Origin: an uncultured Clostridia bacterium
GTDB taxonomy: Bacteria > Bacillota > Clostridia > Oscillospirales > Acutalibacteraceae
Reading direction: 5' to 3'
Length of the DNA stretch: 44,396 nucleotides
NCBI GenBank assembly: GCA_937895645.1
Contig: CALBKQ010000082.1
Location: 1 to 44,396 of the forward strand
Shown: piece by piece, positions 8,192-32,335 of the stretch
Position numbering within the stretch: position 1 is the stretch's first letter
Layout: every line of letters begins with the position of its first letter
Position numbers and translations under genes: made by a program
The notes under the pieces: generated by a model
What the model saw: only the letters and a program-made list of their open reading frames with translations
Told to the model about the DNA's origin: nothing
Database searches by the model: none

Positions 8192-8213
8192 GGGGTGCGA
8201 TTTTCGCACCCCC
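8192..8213 (+). promoter_or_regulatory. GC-rich intra-operon stem-loop without a U-tract
   Basis: GGGGTGCGA-tttt-CGCACCCC directly after the stop at 8179 and upstream of pilT. Confidence 0.4.
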
Positions 8214-8266
8214 ATAGCCACTTATATACAGACTTTAATTTTATTGCAGAAAACGGGTTGAAAATA

Positions 8267-9367: not shown

Positions 9368-9408
9368 TTAGAATTTTATAATTTTTACATATAAAGGGGG
9401 CAACTTAC

Positions 9409-10611: not shown

Positions 10612-10650
10612 AAACAGAAAAATCCTTATACTGACAGGAGAATGATAGAT

Positions 10651-11622
10651 ATGGCTAAACTTAAAAGCGTTATTGGTTGTGAAATTACAACTAATGAGAT
10701 AAGAGCAGTTGAAGTTGCTAAAGAAAGCGGTGCTTATAAAATTCTTGCAATGGGTTATATGCCTTTGGAAGAAGGTGTGATTGGAGAAGCATTTATCAGA
10801 GATGCTGACAAATTCAATGATGCAATCACAGAACTTATTGCTCAGGGTAATTTCCAGACAACAGATGTTGCAATCGGTGTAAACAATGAAAATGTACTTA
10901 TGCGTTATGCAACTTTCCCAAAAGTTGACAATGACAAGCTTCGCAATATGATTCTTTTACAGGCACAGGAGTTTATTCCTATTCCTATTCAGGAAATGGA
11001 AGTGGACTTTGTTGTTGCTGGTGAAACTGTTGACGAAGATGATACACCACAGGTAAACATAATGCTTATCGCAGCAAGAAAGCAGATGCTTGAAGGCTAT
11101 ATCAATCTCTTTACTGCATCAAAATTACAGGTGCAGGAAATTGACTCTTCATTACTTGCATATTGTCGCGGACTCAACGAAATCAGCGATGGTGTAAGAT
11201 ATGGTGTTGTTAATCTTACTGATGATGTGCTTAACTTTATTGTTGTCGAAGGTAACGAAATCGCAATGGTTCGTTCAATTACAATTACTGAAAGAAATCA
11301 GAATGCAGTTACTAATGTATTCAAAGGTTCAAGAGATGGCTCATATACAGACGAAGATGTTGAAACAGTTGCAACTTTCCTTTCATCTGAAACATCATCA
11401 ACAATTAGTTATTACTCAATGCAGAATAGCAAACCTATTGAAAAACTTTATTTCATTATGAACTCATCAGTAGCAGAAAAAATTGCTCCTACAGTAGCAT
11501 CAAATTTATATATTCCTATGGAAGTGCCACAGTTTTATCCAAACTTACAGGCAGAGTCAGTTACACCGTTAGGTGAATATGCAAGTTGTATAGGAATTGC
11601 AATTTCAAGTTTGGAGGGATAA
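10651..11622 (+). CDS. pilM: Type IV pilus assembly protein PilM (actin-like ATPase fold)
   Basis: Its position precedes a PilN-like gene. The sequence contains IGCEITTNEIRAVEV..., ...IGVNNENVLMRY...P and a later ...VVNLTDDVLNFIVVEG, consistent with PilM/FtsA-like subdomains. The ATG at 10651 has better spacing from the AGGAG at 10636-10640 than the ATG at 10642. Confidence 0.8.
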   Translation: MAKLKSVIGCEITTNEIRAVEVAKESGAYKILAMGYMPLEEGVIGEAFIRDADKFNDAITELIAQGNFQTTDVAIGVNNENVLMRYATFPKVDNDKLRNMILLQAQEFIPIPIQEMEVDFVVAGETVDEDDTPQVNIMLIAARKQMLEGYINLFTASKLQVQEIDSSLLAYCRGLNEISDGVRYGVVNLTDDVLNFIVVEGNEIAMVRSITITERNQNAVTNVFKGSRDGSYTDEDVETVATFLSSETSSTISYYSMQNSKPIEKLYFIMNSSVAEKIAPTVASNLYIPMEVPQFYPNLQAESVTPLGEYASCIGIAISSLEG

Positions 11623-12359
11623 TGGTGTTTAAGGTAAGTTTGTTACCAGCAAGTTATAGAAAATTGCTGGAAGGTAAAAAGAAAAAAGATTTAATTCTTA
11701 AAGTTGCATTAGTAATTTTGGTATGCATGCTTATTATGTATAGTGGTTTTGCTGTAAGATTGTTTATTCTTAAGGCTCAGCTTAAAGAGATTCAGCAGAG
11801 CAATGGTTTGATAAGTGCTGAAATTTCAGAACTTGAGCAATATAAGGCAATTTATGATAATCTCGTAGCATCTCAACAGAAAGTTGACCAGATTTTGCCA
11901 AAATCACCAAGTGCAGTTAAATTCTTGTCTTTGGTACAAGCAAATCGTCCTGAATATGCCGAATACACAGTGGTTACGATTCAGGAATGGTCAACAAATC
12001 CTATTTGTATGATTGAAGGCAGTCTTCCAGCGGCACAAAATATAGGTGACGCAGTATCACAACTTCGTGATTTAGAAGAAAACTTCAAAACCGGAGAAGA
12101 TTTCAAAGATGTTGTAACTGAGGTTAAAGTTATTAACAATATGCCATCTGTTACAACAGATGCTCAAGGTAATCAGTCATATACATTCCGCATATACCTT
12201 TCAGCCGGTGGTAGTATAGTTCTTGACGAGTCAGGTGCTCTCGTAACCACAACTACAACAACCACAACTACAACAACCACAACTACAACTACAACTACAA
12301 CAACCACTACAACAGCTCCTGCTGAAAGCACATCAACAGAAGCAAGTACTGAAGCTTAA
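11622..12359 (+). CDS. pilN: PilN-like bitopic pilus alignment protein with a C-terminal poly-Thr tail
   Basis: The start overlaps the pilM stop (TAATG) after GGAGGG. The N-terminal VSLLPASYRK resembles the conserved PilN INLLP peptide. It has one TM segment, a coiled-coil and 23 consecutive Thr codons (12246-12314). Confidence 0.7.
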   Translation: MVFKVSLLPASYRKLLEGKKKKDLILKVALVILVCMLIMYSGFAVRLFILKAQLKEIQQSNGLISAEISELEQYKAIYDNLVASQQKVDQILPKSPSAVKFLSLVQANRPEYAEYTVVTIQEWSTNPICMIEGSLPAAQNIGDAVSQLRDLEENFKTGEDFKDVVTEVKVINNMPSVTTDAQGNQSYTFRIYLSAGGSIVLDESGALVTTTTTTTTTTTTTTTTTTTTTTTAPAESTSTEASTEA

Positions 12360-12372
12360 GGAGGAAATATAA

Positions 12373-12924
12373 ATGAATACAAAAATCAATCTTTCCGGCC
12401 TTAAAGATAAAGTAAGTACTGTTGTCCTTGTTATTATTGCCATGGTATTACTTGTTGCAGTATTAGGTGTTGCCTCATATTTCACAATCAATGAAGTTGC
12501 AGAATTGAAAGAACGCATTGGCTCAAGTGTTACAGCTTACGATGAAAATAAAATTTTTGTGGCAAGTCTTGAAAAGTTAAAAGCAGACTCAAAGTATTAT
12601 GAAGCTCAACAAGCTGAATATGATAAAGTTATTGCAGATGCTGGCACATATAATGCAGTTGATTATTATGTTGCAATCGACGAAATGTGCAAAAAGTACA
12701 ATCTTAAGGTTATTGACATTTCAGTTGGCGATATGCAGCCTAACGGACTTGTAAACCAAGCAACTACAACACTTGCAGTTGTTGGTGAAGAAGTTGATGT
12801 GAGAAGAATGGCAGTTGAAATTGTATCACAAGAAAAAATAGCTAGAATTGATACTATTGCTATGGCAAAACAGCAGGATGGTACTGTTGCGGCGTCAATG
12901 GTAATTGTAAATTTCACGAAATAA
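12373..12924 (+). CDS. pilO: PilO-like bitopic pilus alignment protein
   Basis: AAGGAGG RBS, one TM segment (VVLVIIAMVLLVAVLGVASYF), a coiled-coil, then a small alpha/beta domain. It sits between pilN-like and pilB. Confidence 0.6.
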   Translation: MNTKINLSGLKDKVSTVVLVIIAMVLLVAVLGVASYFTINEVAELKERIGSSVTAYDENKIFVASLEKLKADSKYYEAQQAEYDKVIADAGTYNAVDYYVAIDEMCKKYNLKVIDISVGDMQPNGLVNQATTTLAVVGEEVDVRRMAVEIVSQEKIARIDTIAMAKQQDGTVAASMVIVNFTK

Positions 12925-12954
12925 AGATTTTGAACACGAAAGATAGGTATTTCT

Positions 12955-14640
12955 ATGGCAGATAATGTTATTATCCCCGGTAGTATTTGTGCAAGACTTA
13001 TTGATGCCGGAATTATTACAACAGAGCAGCTACAAGAAGCTCTTGAAATACAGAAGACAAGCAAACAGCTTATAGGTACAATTCTTACACAGTTAGGTTA
13101 CTGTACTGAAGAAGATGTTGCAAGAATGCTTGCAAGTAAGACAGGTCATAAGTTCGTTTCGATTGATGAAGTTGGCGTTAATATTGCAGTTGCAAATCTG
13201 ATTACTCCTGAACTTGCTGTTAAGAACAATATTCTTCCTATCTATGAGGAAGACGGTATTGTTTATGTTGCAATGAAGAATCCTAATGATATTCTTACTG
13301 TGGACTATCTCCGAATGCTCACAGGTTATGAAATCTGCCCTGTAGTAGCGGCTGATATGGAACTTCAGGCAGCTATTGAGAACTTTGCAAATATGAACAG
13401 TGGTGTTGATAATTACGATGACGAAGAAGATGATTTGGCAGTTGAGGCTGAATCTCTTGACATTGATGATAAACCTGCTGTTCAGCTTGTAAACCAGATT
13501 ATCAATAACGCTATTAAAGCAGGCGCTTCGGATATTCACGTTGAAGCTCTTGAAAAATATATGCGTGTCCGTTTCAGAATTGACGGTGTTTTGCAAGAAA
13601 TTATGCAGAACCCTATTAAAATGTATGCAGCAGTAATTTCCAGAATCAAGGTTATTGGTGGTATGGATATTGCTGAACGTCGTATTCCTCAGGACGGTCG
13701 TGCAACAGTTAAATTTGAAGACAAAACAATGGACGTTCGTATTGCTTCAATGCCAACAGTTTACGGCGAAAAAGTCGTAATGCGTTTGCTTGAAAGAAGC
13801 AATACAAACGTTGTAACTCTTAAAGATATTAAGTTCAGCCCTCGTCAGTTTGACAGATTTAACCACGCTATTCATATGCCTTACGGGTTCGTTCTTGTTA
13901 CAGGACCTACTGGTAGTGGTAAATCTACAACACTTTACGCTACATTGGCTGAAATCAGCACACTTGAAAAGAACGTTATTACACTTGAAGACCCTGTTGA
14001 ACGTAGAATGGCAGGCATTAACCAGGTACAGATGAATAACCGTGCAGGTATGACTTTCGCAGCTGCTCTTCGTTCAGTTCTTCGTTCTGACCCCGATATT
14101 GTCATGGTCGGTGAAATTCGAGACAGCGAAACTGCAAAGATTGCCGTTGAAGCTGCTCTTACAGGTCATATGGTTCTTTCAACACTTCATACAAACGATG
14201 CGTCAGGTGCTGTTACCCGTCTTGACGAAATGGGCGTTGAGCCGTTCCTTACTGCATCATCACTTGTTGGTGTTCTTGCACAGCGTCTTGTAAGAAGACT
14301 TTGTCCAAAATGTAAAGAAGAGTATGAAATTTCTCATGCAGAACTTAAAAAGATAGTTCCCGACCTTGAAGAGTATGGCTATAATCAACCAAGTTACAAA
14401 CTTTACAAGGCAAAGGGCTGTCTTACATGTAATAATACAGGCTATAAGGGACGAGAAGCTGTATTTGAATTCCTTACTGTTACAGAAGAAATGAAACGCC
14501 TTATTCTTGACCGTGCAACAGTTGCTGAAGTTAAGAAGTTGGCTATGTCACAAGAAATGTTGACACTTAAAGATGAAGGTCTTTATAAAATGATGGAAGG
14601 TAATACTTCTCTTGAAGAAGTTTTACGTGTTATCGTTTAA
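12955..14640 (+). CDS. pilB: Type IV pilus assembly (extension) ATPase PilB (GspE family)
   Basis: N-terminal GSPII_E_N-like domain, Walker A GPTGSGKSTTLYA, IMVGEIRD, LSTLHTND, and a tetracysteine zinc motif CPKC...CLTC. Confidence 0.93.
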   Translation: MADNVIIPGSICARLIDAGIITTEQLQEALEIQKTSKQLIGTILTQLGYCTEEDVARMLASKTGHKFVSIDEVGVNIAVANLITPELAVKNNILPIYEEDGIVYVAMKNPNDILTVDYLRMLTGYEICPVVAADMELQAAIENFANMNSGVDNYDDEEDDLAVEAESLDIDDKPAVQLVNQIINNAIKAGASDIHVEALEKYMRVRFRIDGVLQEIMQNPIKMYAAVISRIKVIGGMDIAERRIPQDGRATVKFEDKTMDVRIASMPTVYGEKVVMRLLERSNTNVVTLKDIKFSPRQFDRFNHAIHMPYGFVLVTGPTGSGKSTTLYATLAEISTLEKNVITLEDPVERRMAGINQVQMNNRAGMTFAAALRSVLRSDPDIVMVGEIRDSETAKIAVEAALTGHMVLSTLHTNDASGAVTRLDEMGVEPFLTASSLVGVLAQRLVRRLCPKCKEEYEISHAELKKIVPDLEEYGYNQPSYKLYKAKGCLTCNNTGYKGREAVFEFLTVTEEMKRLILDRATVAEVKKLAMSQEMLTLKDEGLYKMMEGNTSLEEVLRVIV

Positions 14641-14682: not shown

Positions 14683-16488
14683 ATGAAGAAATATCTTAAA
14701 AACCGTGAAGGTATGGCATTGCCTATGGTTTTGATTATTATGCTGATTTTAACTATGTTTGCAGCTGCTCTTGGTACTTATGCAAGTCAGTCTTTAAGGT
14801 CGGTTAAATATATGAACGCTCAGAAACAGGCTTATTATCTTGCCCGTGTTGGTGTTGAAGCAGGTGCTTATGCTTATCAGAACGCATCACTCAATACAAG
14901 CGATGCTTATAAGAATTTTAACACGGCTGGTTACAATGGAATTGATGCTATTGTATCAGTATTGCAGGATGTAACTGATGGTAATGACAACCTCATTAGT
15001 AATCCTGGTAAGGTTACAAGCAACAAAGTTTATGTTGTATATGATAAAAATGACATAACAGATGGTAGTATCTGGACGGGACTTAATTTTGTATCTGAAG
15101 GAACAGGTGGATTTGATAATACTTCCCCAAATATTATTGGATATTTTTCAGTTGAGGCATCTGCCGCAGCAAATACAGTTCTTCAGGAAACCGAAAATGC
15201 TGATGGTACTACTTCAATGGTAGAGACTGACCTTCCTGTTGTTGAATTTAGAAGTACTGCAGTGTGTTATGATGGTAGTGGAAATGAAGTTAAAAATGTT
15301 GTCAGCGGTTTTGTTTACCCTGCGGAGAAAGTAGACCCAACAAAGATTGCTGATGATAACGGTGTTCTTTCTACAAATGCTAACGACTTTTCAGACCATG
15401 TAACTGAAACTATTTCTATTGATTCAGGTGGTACGGTTACAAGTAATCAGGGTGATGGCTTTTTTAAGCGTATTGCAACATTCCTTAAGCGACTTTGGAA
15501 TGGTATTGTAAAAACTATTTATAAGGCAATTACAGGAAATGAGTCATTTTCAACTAAAGTTGAAATTTATCAATATTTAAGTGGTGGCGATTTAGTTTTT
15601 GATGCTCCTAAAAATTCTGACACATACAAACTTCCTGATTTTGCATCTGGTCAGTCAGCTTATGCTTACGCTTTTGCGTCATCAGGTACATTGTTCTTAA
15701 ATGCAGGTCTTGATGTTACTACCGATAAAGGTGAATATGCTACAGTTGGCCTTTTTGGTAAGGACATTGTTGTTGACGGCGATATTAAGATGGCTGTTTA
15801 TGTCAACAATCCTGACTATGCTTTGTCGGGTCTTAGCAATATTATTTCAACTTTTGGTAACCGTTATCGCCTTGGTACTGTTGTAATTGGTTCAGGTGCC
15901 AAGTCCGGTGGAGATTTTGCTGAATATTTAAGTGTCGGCAGCGGCGGAATTACTGATGAAACAGGAAAAACAATTAATAATGCAAACCGCATTTTCTTTA
16001 AGGGTAATGTAACGGTTACAGTTTATATGCAGGGTAGTAAAGCAGAAACCTATAGACTTTTCGATGCAGGTGATATTTGCTTGTTTGATGGCTGGTATGC
16101 AAATGATACTGGCGATTCATCATCAGAACCAACCTATGGTGTGGACCTTTTGAAATTCTTTGTTGACTCTGTTGTTGACAGCGACCCAAATTTTGCACAC
16201 TATGGTGAATCAGTTAGAAAAAAGCTTAAGGCAGTTCGTGAATTCTATTACGGTGACCAGCCTTCATACATAACAAAAAAAGATAATAATGTTACAACAC
16301 GACCATTACGAGTTATTGATGTTGACCACAACTCATCAATTGATAGCACTGGTATGGCAATTGATAAAAAGAAAATTACAAATGAAGTTAATGGTGTAAA
16401 GTTGTTAAGATACATTCAACAACCCGTTGTTTCACAGTCCTCAAACATTAATTGGGGACAACCTACAGATTCAGCTTGGGGAAATTAA
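14683..16488 (+). CDS. PilX/GspK-like large minor pilin-type protein lacking Glu5
   Basis: GAAAGGAG RBS. The N-terminus KNREG-MALPMVLIIMLILTMFAAALGTYA fits the PilX-N type segment: Gly precedes the hydrophobic helix, and position +5 is Met rather than Glu. Total length is 601 aa. Confidence 0.6.
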   Translation: MKKYLKNREGMALPMVLIIMLILTMFAAALGTYASQSLRSVKYMNAQKQAYYLARVGVEAGAYAYQNASLNTSDAYKNFNTAGYNGIDAIVSVLQDVTDGNDNLISNPGKVTSNKVYVVYDKNDITDGSIWTGLNFVSEGTGGFDNTSPNIIGYFSVEASAAANTVLQETENADGTTSMVETDLPVVEFRSTAVCYDGSGNEVKNVVSGFVYPAEKVDPTKIADDNGVLSTNANDFSDHVTETISIDSGGTVTSNQGDGFFKRIATFLKRLWNGIVKTIYKAITGNESFSTKVEIYQYLSGGDLVFDAPKNSDTYKLPDFASGQSAYAYAFASSGTLFLNAGLDVTTDKGEYATVGLFGKDIVVDGDIKMAVYVNNPDYALSGLSNIISTFGNRYRLGTVVIGSGAKSGGDFAEYLSVGSGGITDETGKTINNANRIFFKGNVTVTVYMQGSKAETYRLFDAGDICLFDGWYANDTGDSSSEPTYGVDLLKFFVDSVVDSDPNFAHYGESVRKKLKAVREFYYGDQPSYITKKDNNVTTRPLRVIDVDHNSSIDSTGMAIDKKKITNEVNGVKLLRYIQQPVVSQSSNINWGQPTDSAWGN

Positions 16489-16507: not shown

Positions 16508-19500
16508 ATGAAGAATAGAATTAAAAGTTATTTCAACAATAAAAAAGGTATGACTTTAGTTGAAGTGCTTACCGCTATGGCGCTGATTTCGCTTATAATA
16601 TTCTGCTTTGCCCCTTTGTTTTTAACGTATCTTGATTCAATTGTTGTTGCAGGTCGAGAGGTTGACGAAGTAAATACTCAATCCGGTATAATGCAAACAG
16701 TTATTGGTTTGGCTGATAGTACAGAGTCTTCGGGGTATTCTACCGCAGTTGGTGAAATACCTTTGTCACTTCAGGCGAATTCGGGAACAAACGTTTCGCG
16801 AAAGGGAACTGAGGGGGCTATAGTAAATACGGCGACTGCGACTCTCGGTAGTGATTTAAGTAGTTTTAAGGGAGATTTATTATTCTCTGATGCTGACAAC
16901 CCTCAGAATTCGTATATAACAGTTAATGGTGCAAGTACGGCTTCGGGTTTAAGTTATTATCCATCAAGTATTACTGATGATTTTTATAAAGCACAAATTA
17001 CACTTGTTGGTAATGGTAGCGCTAAGTTTGGCGATGGCTTGAGTTATGATGATTTTGAAATAACCGTTTCTAATGTATCAGGGGAATTAGATAGCAGTGA
17101 CTATGCAATCAGAAGAATTGATGAGGAGATAGTAATTCTTGAGTTTTATGGTGGCGGAGATGTTTGTTTTGAAAACTCACCATTGATAATTAAATACAGA
17201 AGTTATAAATGCGTTGTTGAAATAGATGCACCAATGATGATTATGGTTGGTGAAGCTGATGGTGACGGGGATTATAACTATTATGTTTCTCGTGGTGAAA
17301 TTGACGATGCTGGTAATTTGCTTATCCATCGTAGAAAAATGAATAGTGCGCCTTTAACCTCAGCTATGAATGACGTTGAGTGGGTTTCAGCTGACGATGC
17401 GGACTCTTATGCTACTGATAGTAGCGGTAATAAATATGGTTATTATGTAATGTGCGGCGATGAGGGACAAATTCGTCGTTTCTGGAAAGATAATACAACA
17501 GGTAACTATTACTGGGGTGGCGACTATACTTATCATACAGATATTAATATTGACACAGCAAGTGCAGATAGCTCAGGTGCAATAATAAATAAAGTGCGTT
17601 ATGATACTGAGTGGAAAAAAGCACTTGAAACCGATTTCACGTACGTTTACCGTGGGTCACACATTACATCAAGTGAAGGTATGACTAATGTAGTAGGTGG
17701 TTATAGTAATTTAAGACTTTTCAATTCAATTCTTTTTTCTATTAATGCACTCGACACAGATAAAAGAGGTAGTAACACTAATATTGAAGTGTATATTCCT
17801 GACGGTGAAGTTTATTGGTTTGAGTCTATGAAAAAAGATAAAAACTATCCCGACCTTGAAAACTCGGTAACAACTCGCGATAAAATGTTTAACATTTTTA
17901 ACGCTGACGCTGATTTCAATAATGCTACAATAGGTGGTCAAAGTGTAGAAGGTCTTAACCGTTATTGGAATATTAACCTTGCAACCGACTGGATTGGCTT
18001 AAAGGATAATGCCACATATTATGCCGTAAAAGGTCAGGCACAGGATTCCAATATGATTACACTTACCTGTGTTGACGTTATTAATATGTCAAACCTTTCT
18101 GCTTCGGCGAAAGAGGCAGGCGGACCTTATTACACTGTTGCAACTGATGGTTCGAACTATCTTTCGAGTGGTATTGAGTACCCTGATTCAACATACAACC
18201 TTTACTGTGGTTATATTCCTGCGGTAATGGATTTATGGGCAAATGGTAACAGCCGTGGTGATGGTCGAATTACAAGAACGGACGACTGGAAAAAGTATAC
18301 CTTTAATCAGGTCGGTAACAGTTCAATAAGAAGAGATGATGTTCTATATACTGCCGATAATGTTTTTTATTTTGGTAGTAATGACAATAATAACAATGCT
18401 GCCGCAAGTGACTTCTGGTTATGGCCATATTGGAAAGGAACTTATGGTTTGATGCCATATACAACCAATAGTAGCAATAAAATAAAGTATTATTCTCCTA
18501 ACAATGATGGCAATGAGTTGCAACGTGCGTTAGATGCCCACACAGATGCATGGTTCGGAAGTCAGAACTGGAATGCAGATATTGTGTATTATGCATTTGA
18601 TAATATTGGATTTGCTCCTGTAGGCAAAGCTTTTGATAGCAACACAAAAATTGACTCATCTATTGTTGGACCATTTACCTCTATAATCCCAACCAATGCT
18701 TCTCGTCTTGTTGTTCCTCAGATTTATGTTAATGGTGGAGCTGGTTATAACCAACAAAATATCACAGGTGGTCAGTCGGTTGATATTACAGTATCATATC
18801 TTTCACATCCTCTTGCAGTATCTGGTGCAATGAACCCTACTGATGATATGGTATATGATATGTCAAACGACAAGAGTGGTAATCGAGTTTTCTATTGGAA
18901 TAGCACTCGTGATGCGACAACATATCTTGATTGTGCAAGTACAATGGTACCAAACGGGGAAGATGATATTCCTGTATCATTACTTGTTGGTTATGTTACT
19001 GGCGGTCTTGCTGAATATACAGGTGGTAACATAAAGGATGACGCGTTCATTAACTCAATATTCACCAATGGTATTGTTCTGCTTAGAGCAGGTAAAGGCA
19101 ATAGTGTAGGTGCCGGTTCAGCAAACTTTGATACAAAAGAAGAAAGAGCAATGGACAATGGTGGTTATACACTCACCAAAACATCAAATGCGTTCCACCA
19201 GTTTTACTACCTTAACTCAAGAACAAATGAGAGTGAAAAGCCAGAACGTAACCACCCTACAATTAGAGATAGTATTGGTGACATTCACGGCGCAATTTTT
19301 TGGCAGAACAACAGACATATTGCTTATGTTTCAGTAAATGGTGAACAAAATGCAATGGCAACAGGCACATTTGATTCAAATAGTTACGAATACCTTCGTT
19401 GTCATCCGCTTACAAACACAAAGGTTACTTGCGTAACATGGGGTACCTCATGGTGTGGTAACCCTGTTGCGATGTGGGGTACTGAAAACGGTACACTTCT

Positions 19501-20461
19501 CAGTTGGAAGTGCGAAATTAATGATGATAACAATGATGGTGAAACTATTACAGTGTGTACTGGCGGCGAAGGATTCCTGGGTGGACTGTTTTCAAAAGGA
19601 CATACTAAAGAAGAGCATCCAGAATATCATAACGACCGTTCTGTTGTAGCAGAATTCCAGTCATATCAATGGATTGATAATGTAAATAAGACGGCTAACT
19701 TTAAGATTACTTCTGACCAGTGGTTAGATAGTCTTGGTTCAGCAAAACCAAATCAGGCCGGGAACAGTACTCAACTACCATTTACAGACGAAAACTTTTC
19801 GTCTTATGAAGGTTTCTATGACGCATGTTCAAGACTCGCCGCAAAACAGTATCCAGCACTTAATGTTGTTCAGAATATTGGCTTTATTTCAACACTTGAA
19901 AATATCAATGATGTCGAATATTCTGATGACGTTTGGGTTGCTTGTGGTGACCAAAGTGATGCTAATCCAGCAGACTATTGTAAAGCAGGTTATTTTGAAA
20001 TTGGTAATGCAAGTAAGGGCACAAATTTTGTGACTCGTCCTTATATCAGTAAAGATAATTACCAAAAAGCAGTTTCCAATAAAGCACACGGAACAGGTGG
20101 CTCATGGATTAATGTAAACTACTGGATTGACTGTTCAGGTACAGGTCAACAGAGTGTTGATAACAGATTGTACCAGTGGTCCGCTGTTCAAATTTCAACT
20201 GAAGTAGATTGTAACATTGTTCAGATTAACAATGTTAACGGTATGTGGATTGCTACAGGTTATAAAGATACAAATGGTAACGATGATTATGATAACGGCG
20301 AAGAGGCAAGAATTTTCTGGACCTATGACCCTCGCATTCCTTGTGGCGTTAAAGGTGGTTGGAGTAGTTCCGTTAAGCTTTACGATGGTAAGACCCCAGT
20401 TGATGGCAATCTTGCAGCAATGGGTGGTATCAACTCTTGTGCAACTCGTTCAGAAGATTAA
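16508..20461 (+). CDS. Giant (1317 aa) protein with a prepilin-type N-terminal cleavage/methylation signal; putative modular tip pilin/adhesin
   Basis: AAAGGGGA RBS. The class III signal is NNKKG-MTLVEVLTAMALISLIIF, with Gly-1 and Glu+5. The remainder is rich in W/Y/N/G/D. A DTNGNDDYD loop lies at nt 20267-20293. Confidence 0.8.
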   Translation: MKNRIKSYFNNKKGMTLVEVLTAMALISLIIFCFAPLFLTYLDSIVVAGREVDEVNTQSGIMQTVIGLADSTESSGYSTAVGEIPLSLQANSGTNVSRKGTEGAIVNTATATLGSDLSSFKGDLLFSDADNPQNSYITVNGASTASGLSYYPSSITDDFYKAQITLVGNGSAKFGDGLSYDDFEITVSNVSGELDSSDYAIRRIDEEIVILEFYGGGDVCFENSPLIIKYRSYKCVVEIDAPMMIMVGEADGDGDYNYYVSRGEIDDAGNLLIHRRKMNSAPLTSAMNDVEWVSADDADSYATDSSGNKYGYYVMCGDEGQIRRFWKDNTTGNYYWGGDYTYHTDINIDTASADSSGAIINKVRYDTEWKKALETDFTYVYRGSHITSSEGMTNVVGGYSNLRLFNSILFSINALDTDKRGSNTNIEVYIPDGEVYWFESMKKDKNYPDLENSVTTRDKMFNIFNADADFNNATIGGQSVEGLNRYWNINLATDWIGLKDNATYYAVKGQAQDSNMITLTCVDVINMSNLSASAKEAGGPYYTVATDGSNYLSSGIEYPDSTYNLYCGYIPAVMDLWANGNSRGDGRITRTDDWKKYTFNQVGNSSIRRDDVLYTADNVFYFGSNDNNNNAAASDFWLWPYWKGTYGLMPYTTNSSNKIKYYSPNNDGNELQRALDAHTDAWFGSQNWNADIVYYAFDNIGFAPVGKAFDSNTKIDSSIVGPFTSIIPTNASRLVVPQIYVNGGAGYNQQNITGGQSVDITVSYLSHPLAVSGAMNPTDDMVYDMSNDKSGNRVFYWNSTRDATTYLDCASTMVPNGEDDIPVSLLVGYVTGGLAEYTGGNIKDDAFINSIFTNGIVLLRAGKGNSVGAGSANFDTKEERAMDNGGYTLTKTSNAFHQFYYLNSRTNESEKPERNHPTIRDSIGDIHGAIFWQNNRHIAYVSVNGEQNAMATGTFDSNSYEYLRCHPLTNTKVTCVTWGTSWCGNPVAMWGTENGTLLSWKCEINDDNNDGETITVCTGGEGFLGGLFSKGHTKEEHPEYHNDRSVVAEFQSYQWIDNVNKTANFKITSDQWLDSLGSAKPNQAGNSTQLPFTDENFSSYEGFYDACSRLAAKQYPALNVVQNIGFISTLENINDVEYSDDVWVACGDQSDANPADYCKAGYFEIGNASKGTNFVTRPYISKDNYQKAVSNKAHGTGGSWINVNYWIDCSGTGQQSVDNRLYQWSAVQISTEVDCNIVQINNVNGMWIATGYKDTNGNDDYDNGEEARIFWTYDPRIPCGVKGGWSSSVKLYDGKTPVDGNLAAMGGINSCATRSED

Positions 20462-20474
20462 TTAATTTTTAGGG

Positions 20475-20493
20475 CGGGGGGCTCAGCCCCCCG
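20475..20493 (+). promoter_or_regulatory. GC-only intra-operon stem-loop (CGGGGGG-ctcag-CCCCCCG) without a U-tract
   Basis: A seven-bp G:C stem in an otherwise AT-rich spacer between the 1317-aa and 426-aa genes. Confidence 0.4.
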
Positions 20494-20531
20494 AATACAA
20501 GTGTAAACTCATTTATAAATGAGGTGAAAGT

Positions 20532-21812
20532 ATGTTTGAGCTTTTCTATAAAAACAAAAAGGGTTTATCTCTAATTGAGCTTATTGTTACAATTGTTATT
20601 CTTGGTCTTGTTATGGTTATCGCGGGCTCAGTTCTTTATCAGTTTACTAACAACCACAACAATGCAACTGAGCGTTGGCAGGTGCAAAACGCTGTTCGTC
20701 TAGCGTGCAGTAAGTTTGAAAACAATGCTAACTATATCATTAATTCAAAGCAAATTGACATTTTTAAAGACAAAGCTCTTGATGCGGGTATTATTTATGA
20801 TTCCGATACAGGCAAATGGCTTTGGCAATCAACCCCAACCATTATTACTTCCGATGCTGATGATTATACCTACATTTTTTCCGTAAAAGCTTATGAAGCA
20901 CCTGACAACTGGAATGGAATTTCTACCGTAACTGATACCAGCACTCTTACAGAACTTGGATATTACCTTTTCATTAAATATGATAAGGAAATAATGGAAA
21001 AAGCCACAGGAACAGAGTTGGGTACTAATTCAAATTATCCTGCTTGTGTACTATTTCTTAATAATGAGGGATTTGGTGAGGTGCCTGTTCAGGTTGAATT
21101 TTCAGTTGGCACAAATTATTTGCCACCTGTAACTACAACAACTACGCAATCAGGCGAAACTATAACTGAAACTACAACTAGTGCTGTGGCAAAGACATAT
21201 ATGAGCAATAGCGTGAATATTGACTTTAAGTCTGGTAACACAAAGATTATTAACTACAATACAAGCACTAATTATGTTTCTGAAAATCTTGCTTCCTCAA
21301 AATCCGTGGGAATGGAAAACGGTAGACTGATTTATGACAATTCTTGGAAAAATGGCGACACAATGAAGGCGTACCCTTGCGGGTGGGTTGACACATCAGT
21401 TTCTGGATACCCTGCAGGTGAAGCTCTAAAGGTTTATGACCCCAATAATGCGGGAAGTGTAATTTACACTTATGGTGGTGAAATAAACGATACAGGTAAC
21501 GTTTTAAGATTCTTGTCACCGTTATCGGATAAAAGCTTTGAAGATGGAAGTGGCTCATCTGTTACCACGCTTCCAAATTGCCTTAGTGAGTGGACTTTCT
21601 CAAGTACTATAAATTCAGAGGTGTATCTTGACAATCTTCGAAATTTCCGTGACGAAGTATTAAGAGGTACTGAATTTGGTGACTGGTTTATTGAACAGTA
21701 TTATTATGTGTGGTCACCTTTCTTAATTGAGCATACTGCTTTCTTAAAACCTGTTTATAAGGCAGTTATGATTCCTATATCATATATTTGTGAGTTTATA
21801 GCAGATTTATAA
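20532..21812 (+). CDS. Minor pilin-like protein (426 aa) with a prepilin N-terminus and an unusual C-terminal tail
   Basis: GAGGTGA RBS. The class III signal is KNKKG-LSLIELIVTIVILGLVMVIAG (Glu+5). The C-terminal 63 aa contain LRNFRDEVL...YYYVWSP...FLKPVYKAVMIPISYICEFI. Confidence 0.8.
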   Translation: MFELFYKNKKGLSLIELIVTIVILGLVMVIAGSVLYQFTNNHNNATERWQVQNAVRLACSKFENNANYIINSKQIDIFKDKALDAGIIYDSDTGKWLWQSTPTIITSDADDYTYIFSVKAYEAPDNWNGISTVTDTSTLTELGYYLFIKYDKEIMEKATGTELGTNSNYPACVLFLNNEGFGEVPVQVEFSVGTNYLPPVTTTTTQSGETITETTTSAVAKTYMSNSVNIDFKSGNTKIINYNTSTNYVSENLASSKSVGMENGRLIYDNSWKNGDTMKAYPCGWVDTSVSGYPAGEALKVYDPNNAGSVIYTYGGEINDTGNVLRFLSPLSDKSFEDGSGSSVTTLPNCLSEWTFSSTINSEVYLDNLRNFRDEVLRGTEFGDWFIEQYYYVWSPFLIEHTAFLKPVYKAVMIPISYICEFIADL

Positions 21813-21817: not shown

Positions 21818-21853
21818 AAAAGTGAGAGATGTTAAAAATTTCTCACTTTTTTT
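21818..21853 (+). terminator. Rho-independent terminator ending the long pilus assembly operon
   Basis: AGTGAGA...TCTCACT stem flanked by an A-tract and TTTTTTT. Confidence 0.65.
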
Positions 21854-21868
21854 GTGTAGAATACGATA

Positions 21869-21897
21869 TTGACTAAGATTTATAAATGGTATATAAT
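21869..21897 (+). promoter_or_regulatory. Promoter of pilin gene 1 (TTGACT-17-TATAAT)
   Basis: TTGACT 21869-21874, 17-nt spacer, TATAAT 21892-21897. Confidence 0.6.
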
Positions 21898-21911
21898 CAA
21901 ATTGTTAAGAT

Positions 21912-21933: not shown

Positions 21934-21954
21934 CTTTTGAAAGGTATGACATTT

Positions 21955-22398
21955 ATGAGAAAGCTGTTAAATAAAAAAGGCTTTACAATGCTTGAACTTG
22001 TGGTTGTTGTGTTTATACTTGGCATTTTACTTGCTGTTGGTATTCCTGCGTATAACGGGCTACAGACAAGGTCAGAAAACAAGGCTTGTGCCACAAATAT
22101 TGAAATAATTCAACTGGCGGTTGTTGAGTATTACACTGCAAACCAAGTTAAACCATCAAATATAAACGATTTAGCACCATTTTTAGATGAAGGTGGAATG
22201 CCACTTTGTTCTAAGAGTGTTGATGGTGCAGTTGAGTATCATTATGGTTTGGCGGTAGTAAAAAATGCTGATGGTACATATACAGGTCAGGTTATTTGTC
22301 CTTGCACAGAAAAAGGTCATGCACCTAAGGGGGCAGTTGCTAGTTTTTCAGGTGAATATACAGTATTACAAGATGCAAAAACAGTTAATATAGGTTAA
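21955..22398 (+). CDS. pilA: Type IV pilin paralog 1 (147 aa)
   Basis: MRKLLNKKG-FTMLELVVVVFILGILLAVGIPAY prepilin signal with Glu+5, and Cys residues in the C-terminal half. The start is set at 21955, by analogy with the other pilins and by spacing from GAAAGG. Confidence 0.88.
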   Translation: MRKLLNKKGFTMLELVVVVFILGILLAVGIPAYNGLQTRSENKACATNIEIIQLAVVEYYTANQVKPSNINDLAPFLDEGGMPLCSKSVDGAVEYHYGLAVVKNADGTYTGQVICPCTEKGHAPKGAVASFSGEYTVLQDAKTVNIG

Positions 22399-22415
22399 TT
22401 TTAATTGTAATTATT

Positions 22416-22547: not shown

Positions 22548-22967
22548 ATGAGAAAAATGATAAACAAAAAAGGCTTTTCACTTGTTGAATTGATGATAGT
22601 TGTTGTTATTATGGGTATTCTTGTTGCGGTTGCAATTCCACTTTATGGTGCAATAACTGAAAATGCTGAGAAAAAGACCTGTCAGTCTAATCAGAAATTG
22701 GTTCACGAAATGTTTGCAAAATATTGTGTTATGGACGGTACATATTCAGCAAGTTCTTTGTTGCCGAGTGGCTCTTTCAGTAGTAAGAACGGTAATACAA
22801 GTGGTATTGACGAGATTTTTGTTGAAAGTTTTGACGGCGGTTTCCCGGAATGTCCTATAGAAGGCCATTATTTTGTCTTAACAAAAGTAAATCAATATGA
22901 AATTAAAGTTGAATGTTATGACGAAAACGGAAATCTTGATGCAAAACACAATCAGGTAAATGAATAA
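22548..22967 (+). CDS. pilA: Type IV pilin paralog 2 (139 aa)
   Basis: MRKMINKKG-FSLVELMIVVVIMGILVAVAIPLYGAITENAEKKTC. The first 40 or so residues are nearly identical to paralog 3, while the C-terminal domain has diverged. Confidence 0.9.
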   Translation: MRKMINKKGFSLVELMIVVVIMGILVAVAIPLYGAITENAEKKTCQSNQKLVHEMFAKYCVMDGTYSASSLLPSGSFSSKNGNTSGIDEIFVESFDGGFPECPIEGHYFVLTKVNQYEIKVECYDENGNLDAKHNQVNE

Positions 22968-23031
22968 TTGGTAAAACCTTACAAACAAACAAGAGTATCA
23001 TTGTTGGTTTCGACAAATTTCAAAAAAAGGC

Positions 23032-23060
23032 TTTACAAATCACTTGATTTGTAGTAGTAT
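23032..23060 (+). promoter_or_regulatory. Candidate promoter of pilin gene 3 (TTTACA-17-TAGTAT)
   Basis: TTTACA 23032-23037, 17-nt spacer, TAGTAT 23055-23060. No terminator is evident between pilin 2 and this promoter. Confidence 0.45.
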
Positions 23061-23064
23061 AAGA

Positions 23065-23086
23065 GTACGGAAAGTTCCCGTTACAA
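23065..23086 (+). promoter_or_regulatory. Conserved pilin leader box, copy 3 (GTACGGAAAGTTCCCGTTACAA)
   Basis: The motif is shared with 21912 and 22506. It sits at about +1 of the predicted transcript, leaving a leader of about 90 nt before the AAAGGAG RBS. Confidence 0.5.
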
Positions 23087-23155
23087 AATTTGGTATTCAG
23101 GTCAACAGGGACCTTAATATAAAACAAAATTCTTTAATTAAAGGAGAAAATTATT

Positions 23156-23581
23156 ATGAGAAAAATGATGAACAAAAAAGGCTTCTCACTCGTTGAGCTT
23201 ATGATTGTTGTTGTTATCATGGGTATCCTTATTGCTGTTGCTATTCCACTTTACGGTGCAATCACAGAAAACGCAAATAACAAGACATGTACAAACAACA
23301 TCAAAGCTATCAAGTCAAACGCTGCAACTTACAAATCATCTTACAATGCAGATGTTAACTTAGCAGAACTTAAGAAAATGTTTGACGATGGTAATCTTCC
23401 TGACTGTCCATTTGACCAGGACGGCGACAACACAGACTATGATGTTTCTATTGAAACAAATGGTGCAGTAAAAGTTGCTTGTTTGTATAATGGTACTGAA
23501 AAACACGCTCCAAAAGAAGATACAGTTGGTTCTACTAAGATTGTTACAGGTGTAGCATTCGGCGCAGCTGCTCAGTCATAA
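23156..23581 (+). CDS. pilA: Type IV pilin paralog 3 (141 aa), likely the major pilin
   Basis: MRKMMNKKG-FSLVELMIVVVIMGILIAVAIPLYGAITENANNKTC. It has the strongest RBS of the three (AAAGGAG), more C-ending synonymous codons than paralog 2, and a strong terminator. Confidence 0.9.
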   Translation: MRKMMNKKGFSLVELMIVVVIMGILIAVAIPLYGAITENANNKTCTNNIKAIKSNAATYKSSYNADVNLAELKKMFDDGNLPDCPFDQDGDNTDYDVSIETNGAVKVACLYNGTEKHAPKEDTVGSTKIVTGVAFGAAAQS

Positions 23582-32334: not shown

Positions 32335-32335
32335 A

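What the first reader, a model, noticed from the sequence alone, without database searches (positions are those of the whole stretch)
16508..20461. 1317-aa protein with a bona fide prepilin signal: a giant modular pilin with PilY1-like calcium-loop motifs
The N-terminus NNKKG-MTLVEVLTAMALISLIIF is a canonical class III signal (Gly-1, Glu+5), so this protein should be processed by PilD and inserted into the pilus. It is roughly ten times the size of a normal pilin.

The body is rich in W/Y/N/G/D, consistent with beta-propeller or lectin-like folds. Near the C-terminus, the loop D-T-N-G-N-D-D-Y-D (nt 20267-20293) follows the D-x-N-x-(D/N)-x-x-x-D spacing of the EF-hand-like calcium site described in the PilY1 C-terminal propeller. 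A second loop, DGDGDYNYY, lies at nt 17258-17284. This suggests that a PilY1-like adhesin or anti-retraction function is fused directly to a pilin stalk. Modular pilins are known in Streptococcus sanguinis, but at much smaller sizes.
Basis: partly seen in the sequence, partly recalled or inferred. Interest (0 to 1): 0.65.

Follow-up and report, generated by a model that had tools for sequence, protein, structure and literature searches.

The report
Giant calcium-loop tip pilin of gut Clostridia
This gene in a cattle-gut Clostridia bacterium encodes a 1317-residue type IV pilin whose stalk carries a huge, previously undescribed beta-rich head with a conserved calcium-binding-type loop, so it probably acts as the built-in sticky tip of the pilus, the job done in Gram-negative bacteria by the separate protein PilY1.

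Summary
ORF 16508..20461 (+) encodes 1317 aa with a class III prepilin signal (G14|M15, E19). It lies inside a complete type IV pilus operon that includes PilD.

It belongs to a conserved, unannotated, MAG-only family from gut and rumen Clostridia. One search found 284 hits, and 119 of the 120 sequences returned (full-length ones 1224-1429 aa; a 2109-aa member came) keep the signal.

The C-terminal loop is more than a chance motif. It is a 12-residue EF-hand-type loop, D-x-N-x-N-[D/G]-E-Y-D-x-G-E. D1 and E12 are invariant in 112 of 112 sequences, and the loop sits in a confidently modelled beta-hairpin. The second loop, DGDGDYNYY, is not conserved.

The PilY1-propeller interpretation is only partly supported. 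The gene's position, its size and the calcium motif all parallel PilY1. However, Pfam, a PDB profile search, an exhaustive HMMER search of 1.84 billion proteins and Foldseek found no link to PilY1/PilC. The roughly 1080-aa head is a compact sequence orphan (pTM 0.88) with only weak matches to propeller proteins.

The gene always sits between a GspK-like cap pilin that lacks Glu5 and a roughly 400-aa pilin. Some genomes carry two such cassettes.

Best reading: a minor pilin of the tip/priming complex with a built-in, calcium-dependent adhesin head. I rate it a new variant of a known kind.

The parts
16508..20461 (+). Gene for the giant prepilin: 1317 aa, mature form about 143 kDa, pI 4.4, net charge -73
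   Evidence: The family was found (284 hits; full-length members 1224-1429 aa, 34-76 % identity).
16508..16549 (+). Class III leader peptide, aa 1-14 (MKNRIKSYFNNKKG), ending in the invariant Gly-1
   Evidence: Pfam N_methyl and TIGR02532 both score above their cut-offs. G14 is invariant. 119/120 homologues keep the signal.
16550..16714 (+). Pilin alpha1 helix, aa 15-69, with Glu+5 (E19) and the conserved Pro at +22 (P36)
   Evidence: AF2 predicts one continuous helix over aa 17-69, pLDDT 69-84. E19, A23 and P36 are invariant.
16715..16945 (+). Small, variable beta region, aa 70-146. This is presumably the pilin head or a linker, and it is poorly modelled.
   Evidence: Six short strands at pLDDT 40-55. 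Conservation is lowest here and gaps are frequent.
16946..17227 (+). Ig-like beta-sandwich domain, aa 147-240, containing the invariant P152 and T-D-D-F (156-159) motif
   Evidence: Eight strands at pLDDT 82-91 in both models. Foldseek hits NCAM Ig1 and Ig1-2 (prob 0.96-0.99) and filamin-NHL.
17228..20458 (+). Head of about 1080 aa (aa 241-1317). It is a compact, mostly-beta orphan fold with seven recurrent strand motifs h-h-h-x-G-[D/E/Y] at aa 244, 313, 565, 825, 973, 1143 and 1247, separated by variable insertions.
   Evidence: AF2 pLDDT 83.6, pTM 0.88. Motifs and conservation profile. Only weak propeller-type Foldseek hits. No Pfam family in 34 members. No relatives outside the family among 1.84e9 proteins.
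20267..20302 (+). EF-hand-type 12-residue loop D1254-T-N-G-N-D-D-Y-D-N-G-E1265, lying between strands aa 1246-1253 and 1267-1272
   Evidence: Flanking strands and pLDDT 89-94. PilY1 consensus in PMC8833165.
17258..17284 (+). It is not a conserved acidic loop; only the Tyr residues are invariant.
14683..16488 (+). 601-aa GspK/PilX-like minor pilin lacking Glu5 (REG|MALPM), the presumed cap of the tip complex
   Evidence: NCBIfam T2SS_GspK N-terminus at E 3.8e-5 and Pfam PilX_N at E 0.011, both below their cut-offs. Sequence. Conserved upstream partner in L002, L003, L004, L005 and L006.
20532..21812 (+). 426-aa minor pilin with Glu5 (KKG|LSLIE), the conserved downstream partner
   Evidence: Pfam N_methyl E 4e-7. 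Conserved in L002-L006.
21955..22398 (+). Small pilin of about 147 aa (MRKLLNKKG|FTMLE). The listed ORF starts at 21886, but ATG 21955 fits a prepilin leader.
22548..23581 (+). Two tandem major-pilin-like genes (139 and 141 aa) with their own consensus sigma-70 promoter at 22465-22493
   Evidence: RNA contigs of related strains give very high depth at 22609-23808.
26560..27387 (+). Prepilin peptidase PilD (Peptidase_A24 plus A24_N_bact)
8195..14640 (+). Assembly machinery: PilT 8195-9367, PilC platform 9409-10611, PilM 10642-11622, PilN/PilO-like 11586-12924 and PilB 12955-14640
   Evidence: The same order is found in L002 and L003.
21818..21850 (+). Terminator-like hairpin closing the pilB/601/1317/426 transcription unit
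   Evidence: Gaps between pilB, 601, 1317 and 426 are 19-70 nt.

Best explanation
The gene encodes a minor type IV pilin that is its own adhesin.

Proposed mechanism:
1. PilD (26560-27387) cleaves the 14-residue leader after Gly14.
2. The 53-residue alpha1 helix with Glu5 anchors the protein in the membrane and later in the filament core.
3. With the upstream GspK-like 601-aa pilin (no Glu5, so the cap), the downstream 426-aa pilin and a small pilin, it forms the complex that primes pilus assembly. That complex then stays at the pilus tip.
4. An Ig-like spacer (aa 147-240) holds out a rigid, acidic, all-beta head of about 120 kDa (aa 241-1317). The head has conserved blade-like strands and lineage-variable insertions.
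5. A conserved EF-hand-type loop in the last beta-hairpin binds calcium. This stabilises or switches the head, as in PilY1/PilC.
6. The variable insertions bind the ligand. In a cattle-gut Clostridia organism that ligand is most likely plant-fibre or host/microbial glycan.

Because the head is far too bulky to fit within the shaft of the filament, it can only sit at the tip. There it would also act as a stop against complete retraction by PilT.

In function this merges a minor pilin with a PilY1-like tip effector in one polypeptide. It is not a detectable PilY1 homologue.

Shown here: the signal, the alpha1 prediction, the operon context, the conservation of the family and cassette, the conservation of the loop, and the compact head. 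Inferred: cleavage, tip location, calcium binding, adhesion and ligand class.
For: - Prepilin signal above the curated cut-offs and invariant in the family.
- AF2 predicts an alpha1 helix over aa 17-69.
- The operon is complete, with PilT/C/M/N/O/B, five further pilin genes and PilD. The order is the same in relatives at 42-56 % identity.
- The trio of a cap pilin lacking Glu5, the giant, and a roughly 400-aa pilin recurs even in divergent genomes. It occurs twice in L004/L005, where the two giants share 46 % identity and diverge most in the central insert. It also occurs as a stand-alone cassette in L006. This parallels the multiple minor-pilin/PilY1 clusters of M. xanthus (PMC7541494).
- The head is modelled as one rigid body with pTM 0.88.
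- The 12-residue acidic loop has D1 and E12 in 112/112 sequences. It is kept in members at only 27-32 % identity, sits between two strands at pLDDT about 90, and is a near match to the PilY1 motif.
- Conserved strand motifs alternate with gap-rich variable segments.
- Published work holds that minor pilins form a tip complex capped by a subunit lacking Glu5, and that modular pilins carry adhesive modules at the tip (PMC10191384, PMC8179133).
- In bovine metatranscriptome contigs the major pilin genes are very deep and the giant gene is near zero, as expected for a low-abundance minor pilin (weak evidence, because the contigs come from related strains).
Against: - There is no experimental evidence at all. 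Every member comes from a MAG or a metagenome.
- The pilin globular head (aa 70-146) is modelled at low confidence, so a canonical pilin fold beyond alpha1 is not shown.
- No recognised adhesin, lectin or CBM domain was found by Pfam or Foldseek, so the ligand class is a guess from habitat.
- Calcium binding is inferred from a motif alone.
- The flanks of the loop are beta-strands, not the helices of true EF-hands.
- I could not obtain the model coordinates, so the blade count and the surface position of the loop are unverified.
Confidence: 0.6

Rival explanations
1. This is a true, very divergent PilY1/PilC homologue. The head would be the PilY1 seven-bladed propeller, inherited from a common ancestor and fused to a pilin. 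It would have the same calcium-controlled anti-retraction function.
For: A near-consensus calcium motif lies in a beta-hairpin near the C-terminus. The gene is adjacent to the K-like minor pilin. There are seven recurrent strand motifs. The last two candidate blades align with each other at hhalign E 8e-5. The best whole-chain Foldseek hits are multi-propeller proteins and a filamin-NHL protein.
Against: PF05567 does not match at E<=10 on segments or in 34 members. The family profile searched against all PDB sequences, which include PilY1/PilC structures, gives nothing. The exhaustive HMMER search finds 47 proteins, all family members, with no bridging sequences. No PilY1/PilC chain appears in the Foldseek top 50, and the propeller hits have probability <=0.12. 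DxDxDG-type loops recur in unrelated folds (my own knowledge). Most candidate-blade pairs show no significant similarity.
Confidence: 0.15
2. This is a pilin-anchored enzyme or fibre-binding module rather than a tip-complex component. The head would be a carbohydrate-active or carbohydrate-binding beta-propeller-like domain displayed on, or secreted through, the pilus machinery. This would fit fibre attachment in the rumen or gut, as proposed for Ruminococcus pilins.
For: The habitat is bovine gut. Ruminococcus T4P pilins are linked to cellulose adhesion and are induced on cellulose (PMC3672088). The head is acidic, rich in Y/W/N/G and all-beta. Many acidic and aromatic residues are invariant.
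Against: No glycoside-hydrolase, CBM or lectin family was hit by Pfam in 34 members or by Foldseek. The strict linkage to a K-like cap pilin and a second large pilin argues for a structural role in the tip complex. The adhesion part of this reading overlaps with the best explanation rather than excluding it.
Confidence: 0.15
3. This is a pilin-like protein that is never polymerised. It would be a membrane-anchored assembly or alignment factor, or a cell-wall-spanning plug of the machine in a monoderm envelope. It would use the prepilin N-terminus only as a membrane anchor and PilD substrate.
For: A body of about 120 kDa is hard to pass through peptidoglycan. M. xanthus data show that bulky additions to tip proteins can jam the machine (PMC7541494). 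The operon also encodes a LysM/secretin-N-like wall protein.
Against: Glu5 is invariant. Glu5 is the residue used for filament incorporation, and non-polymerising cap subunits typically lack it (PMC10191384). The Ig-like spacer and the variable surface inserts suggest an exposed, ligand-facing module.
Confidence: 0.07
4. This is a DNA receptor of a competence-type pilus, analogous to Thermus ComZ, which is a large tip pilin with an inserted beta-solenoid.
For: It is a large tip-type pilin in a retractile system with PilT. ComZ is a precedent (PMC8179133; PMC6561018 listed).
Against: The head is strongly acidic, with pI 4.55 and net charge -54, which is unfavourable for DNA binding. No competence genes (comEA/comEC) were found among the ORFs of at least 100 aa that I scanned in this window.
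Confidence: 0.03

Closest known systems
PilY1 / PilC tip adhesin of diderm type IVa pili (Pseudomonas, Neisseria, Kingella, Myxococcus)
   Same: It is a protein of more than 1000 aa encoded beside the GspK/PilX-like minor pilin. It has a conserved C-terminal beta-rich scaffold and variable regions. It carries an EF-hand-like acidic loop (PilY1 consensus Dx[DN]xDGxxD) between two beta-strands near the C-terminus. Some genomes hold several alternative cassettes. The expected roles are the same: priming, tip adhesion and limiting retraction.
   Different: PilY1 has a Sec (type I) signal and is explicitly not a pilin, whereas this protein has a class III signal and an alpha1 helix. No sequence match was found (PF05567, PDB profile, exhaustive HMMER). 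No specific fold match was found in the Foldseek top 50. The loop here extends to a 12-residue form with an invariant Glu12. The host is a presumed monoderm.
Modular type IV pilins: Streptococcus sanguinis PilB (vWA) and PilC (lectin), ETEC CofB, Thermus ComZ, T2SS GspK
   Same: An N-terminal pilin module carries one or more bulky extra modules and is predicted to sit at the tip. It works with other minor pilins. PilB also has a metal-dependent site (MIDAS).
   Different: This protein is about three times larger (1317 aa versus about 460-550 aa; the largest case cited in the 2021 survey is 860 aa). Its extra module is not a known domain, so InterPro-based surveys would not have counted it. An Ig-like spacer is combined with a single rigid body of about 1080 aa.
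Saccharibacteria (TM7x) PilX2
   Same: It is a pilin-like minor subunit of a monoderm-type T4P that carries a C-terminal seven-bladed beta-propeller. It is proposed to be the host-binding adhesin and shows only distant structural similarity to PilY1 (PMC11623550).
   Different: The PilX2 propeller has recognisable RCC1 repeats, and PilX2 is reported to lack a predicted PilD signal. The protein here has a canonical signal, no recognisable repeats and a conserved calcium loop.
Ruminococcus albus / R. flavefaciens type IV pili (CbpC, GP25, Pil3/Pil4)
   Same: These are T4P of fibre-associated gut Clostridia with two tandem small major pilins. They are implicated in adhesion to cellulose.
   Different: In those systems adhesion is attributed to the roughly 14-kDa major pilins. 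The paper read here (PMC3672088) describes no giant pilin.

Membership tests
Type IV pilin (class III signal peptide protein) | Short basic leader ending in Gly, followed by about 20 hydrophobic residues with Glu at +5 | tested here: met
   MKNRIKSYFNNKKG|MTLVEVLTAMALISLIIF. Pfam N_methyl scores 21.8 bits against a cut-off of 21.2. TIGR02532 scores 18.9 against 16.3. G14 and E19 are invariant. 119/120 homologues keep the signal.
Type IV pilin (class III signal peptide protein) | Extended N-terminal alpha-helix (alpha1) of about 50 residues | tested here: met
   AF2 predicts a helix over aa 17-69. This is a prediction only.
Type IV pilin (class III signal peptide protein) | Globular head with a beta-sheet packed on alpha1-C | tested here: inconclusive
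   aa 78-126 are predicted as six short strands, but at pLDDT 40-55. Foldseek on that model returns only Ig-type hits.
Type IV pilin (class III signal peptide protein) | Prepilin peptidase and assembly ATPase/platform encoded with it | tested here: met
   PilD, PilB, PilT, PilC and PilM are in the same operon. The arrangement is conserved in L002 and L003.
Type IV pilin (class III signal peptide protein) | Cleavage by PilD and incorporation into filaments | not testable with these tools
   This needs N-terminal sequencing or mass spectrometry of pili from a carrier organism.
PilY1/PilC (Neisseria_PilC, PF05567 / IPR008707) | Sequence match to the PilY1/PilC C-terminal domain | tested here: not met
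   There is no PF05567 hit on the whole protein, on five overlapping segments at E<=10, or in 34 diverse members. The PDB profile search gives no PilY1/PilC hit at E<=10. The exhaustive HMMER search finds only the family itself.
PilY1/PilC (Neisseria_PilC, PF05567 / IPR008707) | Modified seven-bladed beta-propeller fold like PDB 3HX6 | tested here: inconclusive
   No PilY1/PilC chain appears among the top 50 Foldseek PDB hits. Propeller proteins (SF3B130, DDB1, Elp2, NHL) appear at E 1e-4 to 4e-2 but mostly with low probability. There are seven blade-like strand motifs, but only one blade pair is significantly similar. I could not inspect the coordinates.
PilY1/PilC (Neisseria_PilC, PF05567 / IPR008707) | Type I (Sec) signal peptide; soluble non-pilin | tested here: not met
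   The protein has a class III signal and an alpha1 helix. The PilY1 definition comes from PMC7541494 and PMC8833165.
PilY1/PilC (Neisseria_PilC, PF05567 / IPR008707) | EF-hand-like Dx[DN]xDGxxD loop between two beta-strands in the C-terminal domain | tested here: met
   DTNGNDDYD: positions 1, 3 and 9 match, position 5 is N (D in 14/112) and position 6 is D (G in 42/112). The loop is flanked by strands 1246-1253 and 1267-1272. Calcium binding itself was not tested.
PilY1/PilC (Neisseria_PilC, PF05567 / IPR008707) | Encoded with the core minor pilins, next to the K-type subunit | tested here: met
   The gene lies directly downstream of the GspK-like 601-aa pilin. The same holds in L002-L006.
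Modular type IV pilins (sensu Raynaud et al. 2021) | N-terminal pilin module fused to one or more modules not specific to T4P biology | tested here: met
   alpha1 is followed by an Ig-like domain (Foldseek prob up to 0.99) and a body of about 1080 aa. The large module has no database signature.
Canonical EF-hand | 12-residue loop with ligands at positions 1, 3, 5, 7, 9 and 12 and Glu at 12 | tested here: met
   D1254, N1256, N1258, D1260, D1262 and E1265. D1 and E12 are present in 112/112 sequences.
Canonical EF-hand | Helix-loop-helix flanks, usually paired | tested here: not met
   The flanks are predicted beta-strands and the site is single.

The most novel reading that the evidence does not exclude
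Gut and rumen Clostridia have solved the pilus-tip problem differently from diderm bacteria. Instead of four small minor pilins plus a separate, Sec-exported PilY1, they use a cassette of three oversized pilins: a cap without Glu5 of about 480-660 aa, a giant of about 1200-2100 aa, and a third of about 320-450 aa. In this cassette the calcium-switched adhesin and retraction stop is itself a polymerisable pilin, built on a fold with no relative in sequence databases or the PDB. Either the fold arose independently and converged on a PilY1-type calcium loop, or it is the long-sought monoderm counterpart of PilY1, diverged beyond recognition. Swappable cassettes with variable inserts would set the binding specificity.
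Probability: 0.35. Interest if true: 0.72.

Novelty: new variant of a known kind. Interest (0 to 1): 0.56.

Why it matters
How monoderm type IV pili prime assembly and adhere without a PilY1/PilC protein is an open question. The only well-studied case, S. sanguinis, uses small modular pilins.

This family offers a second solution that is widespread in gut and rumen Clostridia: a pilin of about 145 kDa with a built-in calcium-loop head, always partnered with a Glu5-less cap pilin.

It gives a concrete, testable candidate for the adhesin that attaches uncultured fibre-associated Clostridia to their substrate or host. It would also be among the largest pilins described. The survey I read (PMC8179133) cites 860 aa as its extreme case.

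The head is a structurally confident orphan fold of about 1080 aa, which makes it a good target for experimental structure determination. It also shows that domain-signature surveys of modular pilins miss such proteins.

Tried and rejected
1. Pfam, at E<=10 on the whole protein and on five overlapping 250-367-aa segments, and NCBIfam (E<=0.1, whole protein), found nothing beyond the N-terminal methylation motif.
2. Pfam on 34 diverse family members found only N_methyl (33/34) and no propeller, lectin, CBM or PilC family.
3. phmmer and a family-profile hmmsearch against all PDB sequences hit only a geopilin N-terminus.
4. Foldseek of the 1200-residue model against the PDB gave only weak hits to generic propellers and Ig domains. 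Against BFVD (viral) nothing was meaningful. Foldseek of the aa 1-470 model gave tandem Ig hits only.
5. hhalign between the seven candidate blades gave one significant pair of 21 (aa 1128-1165 vs 1215-1275, E 8e-5). Internal repeat homology is therefore not demonstrated.
6. An exhaustive HMMER search with a head-only profile found no remote relatives or bridging sequences.
8. I could not get a PilY1 sequence or alignment into the session for a direct profile-profile comparison.
9. The original PilY1 structure paper (PMC2824316) is not held. I took the motif from PMC8833165 instead.
10. RNA evidence is limited to contigs of related strains at 90-95 % identity. It shows that the major pilins are highly expressed but says little about the giant gene.
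11. I rejected the DGDGDYNYY loop as a calcium site because it is not conserved.
12. I rejected a DNA-receptor role because the head is strongly acidic.

Full report
OBSERVATION

The ORF at 16508..20461 (+) is real and uninterrupted. It encodes 1317 aa, starts with ATG, and has a purine-rich ribosome-binding stretch upstream.

Its N-terminus, MKNRIKSYFNNKKG|MTLVEVLTAMALISLIIF, scores above the curated cut-offs of Pfam N_methyl and TIGR02532.

The composition is rich in G, N, S, D, T and Y, and the mature protein is strongly acidic, with pI 4.4 and net charge -73.

GENOMIC CONTEXT

The gene lies in a co-directional type IV pilus operon. In order, the genes are:
- a LysM/secretin-N-like wall protein (6374-8179)
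- PilT (8195-9367)
- the PilC platform protein (9409-10611)
- PilM (10642-11622)
- two single-pass PilN/PilO-like proteins (11586-12924)
- PilB (12955-14640)
- a 601-aa pilin-like protein whose N-terminus matches GspK/PilX and lacks Glu5 (REG|MALPM; 14683-16488)
- the giant pilin
- a 426-aa pilin with Glu5 (20532-21812)
- a pilin of about 147 aa (21955-22398)
- two tandem small major-type pilins (22548-22967 and 23156-23581)
- a YfhO/PgfM-like glycosyltransferase (23689-26556)
- the prepilin peptidase PilD (26560-27387)

The gaps between pilB, the 601-aa gene, the giant gene and the 426-aa gene are 19-70 nt. A terminator-like hairpin follows the 426-aa gene. The major pilins have their own perfect sigma-70 consensus promoter.

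In bovine metatranscriptome contigs from related strains, depth is very high over the major pilin genes and near zero over the giant gene. This fits a low-abundance minor pilin, but the evidence is weak.

The sequence itself is found in bovine gut metagenomes.

THE FAMILY

A word-indexed search found 284 relatives. Of the 120 best, all but three partial matches cover the query end to end, at 34-76 % identity and 1224-1429 aa. None has a Pfam domain other than an occasional N_methyl. [quoted passage not shown] They come from MAGs of Clostridia, Oscillospiraceae, Clostridiales and Candidatus Fimenecus.

119 of 120 keep the G|[M]-x-L-x-E signal. The exception is truncated at its N-terminus.

An exhaustive HMMER search of 1.84 billion representative proteins, using a profile of the head alone (aa 231-1317), returned only 47 proteins. 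Forty-six of them had E<=1e-10, and all are family members or fragments. In the full-length members the matched region begins at about residue 230-276. The family is therefore an island in sequence space. Every full-length divergent member whose sequence I read carries the pilin N-terminus.

The gene order is conserved in relatives at 42-56 % identity (L002 and L003).

More divergent genomes show that the conserved unit is a trio: a K-like pilin of about 480-660 aa, then the giant, then a pilin of about 320-450 aa with Glu5.
- L004 and L005 carry two such cassettes. Their two giants (1374 and 1315 aa) share 46 % identity, and their alignment breaks down in the central insert.
- L006 carries a stand-alone cassette whose giant is 2109 aa, owing to a Lys/Glu-rich insertion of about 900 aa.

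STRUCTURE

AF2 on aa 118-1317 with a 112-sequence alignment gave mean pLDDT 83.6 and pTM 0.88. The body is therefore one compact, mostly-beta assembly.

AF2 on aa 1-470 gave the following:
- a continuous helix over aa 17-69, the pilin alpha1
- six short strands at aa 78-126 with low confidence (pLDDT 40-55)
- a well-modelled eight-strand Ig-like sandwich at aa 147-240

Foldseek confirmed the Ig-like domain, with hits to NCAM Ig and filamin at probability up to 0.99.

For the body of about 1080 aa, Foldseek gave only weak matches. These were to multi-propeller proteins (SF3B130, DDB1, Elp2; E 1e-4 to 4e-2, probability <=0.12) and to a filamin-NHL protein (E 2e-4, probability 0.96, 322 columns). 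No PilY1/PilC chain was in the top 50. The viral library gave nothing useful.

The alignment shows seven recurrent strand motifs of the form h-h-h-x-G-[D/E/Y]:
- MIMVGE at aa 244
- YVMCGD at aa 313
- LYCGY at aa 565
- LLVGY at aa 825
- VTCVTWG at aa 973
- WVACGD at aa 1143
- WIATGY at aa 1247

Each lies on a predicted strand, and three are preceded by an [IV]-N-[DN]-V strand. Conservation peaks at these motifs and drops in the gap-rich segments between them. This pattern is what a seven-bladed propeller with large inserts would look like. However, profile-profile comparison of the candidate blades was significant for only one pair (E 8e-5), and I could not inspect coordinates. I therefore call the head 'propeller-like, unproven'.

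THE CALCIUM-TYPE LOOP

Two further findings make it convincing.

First, the loop extends to a 12-residue EF-hand-type pattern, D1254-x-N-x-N-D-D-Y-D-x-G-E1265. Only 0.2 % of shuffles contain that pattern.

Second, it is very strongly conserved across 112 homologues:

| Loop position | Residues (count of 112) |
|---|---|
| 1 | D 112 |
| 3 | N 82, S 15, D 6, T 6 |
| 5 | N 97, D 14 |
| 6 | D 46, G 42, E 22 |
| 7 | E 98, D 6 |
| 8 | aromatic (Y, W or F) 102 |
| 9 | D 109 |
| 11 | G 103 |
| 12 | E 112 |

The loop persists in members at only 27-32 % identity. Examples are DADGDGKNDANE, DRNKDGINDDGE and DENGNGTNDAEE. It is absent in one of the 20 divergent members examined (P0142).

It lies between predicted strands 1246-1253 and 1267-1272, in a region with pLDDT 89-94.

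The PilY1 consensus is Dx[DN]xDGxxD in a surface loop between two beta-strands (PMC8833165).

The second loop, DGDGDYNYY, is not a conserved acidic site. Only its tyrosines are invariant.

IS IT PilY1?

By every test I could run for homology, the answer is no. There is no PF05567 match on the whole protein, on segments at E<=10, or in 34 diverse members. There is no PilY1/PilC hit with a family profile against all PDB sequences. There are no bridging sequences in the exhaustive search. There is no PilY1 among the top Foldseek hits.

By definition PilY1/PilC is a Sec-exported non-pilin (PMC7541494, PMC10191384), whereas this protein is a prepilin. Membership is therefore rejected on sequence and on signal type, and it stays inconclusive at the fold level.

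The functional analogy is strong. The shared features are the position beside the K-type subunit, the large size, a conserved scaffold with variable parts, a conserved calcium-type loop near the C-terminus, and multiple cassettes per genome, as in M. xanthus.

MECHANISM PROPOSED

1. PilD removes the 14-residue leader.
2. alpha1, with Glu5, docks the protein into the nascent filament beneath the Glu5-less 601-aa cap, together with the 426-aa and small pilins.
3. This complex primes assembly and stays at the tip (general model from PMC10191384 and PMC7541494).
4. The Ig-like domain spaces the 120-kDa head away from the shaft.
5. Calcium bound in the 1254-1265 loop stabilises or switches the head.
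6. The variable inserts bind the ligand.
7. The bulk of the head stops PilT-driven retraction at the wall.

Steps 1-3 rest on sequence features and context. Steps 4-7 are inference. The ligand class (plant fibre, or host or microbial glycan) is suggested only by habitat and by the Ruminococcus precedent for pilus-mediated cellulose adhesion (PMC3672088). A DNA-receptor role like that of ComZ is unlikely given the acidic head.

COMPARISON AND NOVELTY

The closest concept is the modular pilin (S. sanguinis PilB/PilC, CofB, ComZ, GspK). The 2021 survey cites 860 aa as its extreme case, states that PilY1 is not a pilin, and predicts that modular pilins with unrecognised modules are under-counted (PMC8179133). 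This family is one of those.

Saccharibacteria PilX2, a pilin-like protein with an RCC1 propeller and no predicted PilD signal, is a looser parallel (PMC11623550).

My searches found no paper describing this family.

I rate it a new variant of a known kind: a tip or modular minor pilin, but of unprecedented size, with an orphan head and a conserved EF-hand-type loop, linked to a conserved three-pilin cassette in uncultured gut Clostridia.

VERDICT

Confidence in the tip-adhesin-pilin mechanism is about 0.6, and interest is 0.56.

Noticed in passing
window 6374-8179 (+): The first gene of the pilus operon encodes a 601-aa protein with a signal-anchor, a LysM domain and weak secretin N0/N1-type matches (Secretin_N, STN, PilQ/YscC N-terminal regions). 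No secretin pore domain was detected. A secretin-N-like, peptidoglycan-binding protein in a presumed monoderm T4P system is unusual. It is conserved in L003, and an ORF of similar size sits at the same position in L002 (not scanned).
   Followed up: partly
window 23689-26556 (+): A 955-aa YfhO family membrane protein, similar to the streptococcal PgfM1/PgfM2 glycosyltransferases, sits between the major pilin genes and pilD. A YfhO family protein is called at the same place in L003 (a 939-aa ORF, not scanned, occupies that place in L002) and near the cassettes in L004/L005. It is a candidate pilin glycosylation enzyme.
   Followed up: no
window 20532-21812 (+), aa 366-410: The 426-aa minor pilin ends in a hydrophobic tail (…LIEHTAFLKPVYKAVMIPISYICEFIADL). 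The tail matches the NCBIfam CFI-box-CTERM domain at E 1.4e-7, below its cut-off, and is conserved in L002 and L003. A pilin with a second, C-terminal membrane or sorting-type segment is odd.
   Followed up: no
window 21818-23581 (+): Terminator-like hairpins lie at 21818-21850 and 22416-22439. A perfect TTGACA-17-TATAAT promoter lies at 22465-22493, just before two tandem major pilin genes (139 and 141 aa). Bovine metatranscriptome contigs that are 90-95 % alike reach word depths of hundreds to thousands there.
   Followed up: partly
window about 27500-42300: In L003, pilD is followed directly by the aldolase and aminotransferase genes that lie at 42456-44357 (-) in this window. The roughly 15 kb in between therefore looks like an insertion. 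It holds PadR, a HAAS-domain protein, DUF2804, an MFS transporter, a phage head-packaging module on the minus strand (small terminase 37422-37913, large terminase 36167-37624, portal 35017-36147, capsid 33051-34055), MarR and two ABC exporters. No tail genes were seen, so it may be a defective prophage or a PICI/GTA-like element.
   Followed up: partly
L004/L005 10001-14125 (+) and about 17363-21326 (-); L006 6770-13099 (+): Some genomes carry two paralogous cassettes of K-like pilin, giant pilin and a roughly 400-aa pilin. Their giants share 46 % identity and diverge most in a central insert. One member (P0130, 2109 aa) has an insertion of about 900 aa, rich in Lys and Glu and coiled-coil-like, in the middle of the head. 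It lies in a cassette away from the machinery genes.
   Followed up: partly
window 21886-22398 (+): The mechanical ORF starts at 21886, but the prepilin leader MRKLLNKKG|FTMLE begins at the internal ATG at 21955. That is the more likely start, giving a pilin of about 147 aa.
   Followed up: yes
window 3432-4430 and 4462-5466 (+): Two adjacent paralogous ORFs of 332 and 334 aa (MAKK…LTPE…, one predicted transmembrane helix near the N-terminus) lie just upstream of the pilus operon. Neither matches any Pfam family.
   Followed up: no
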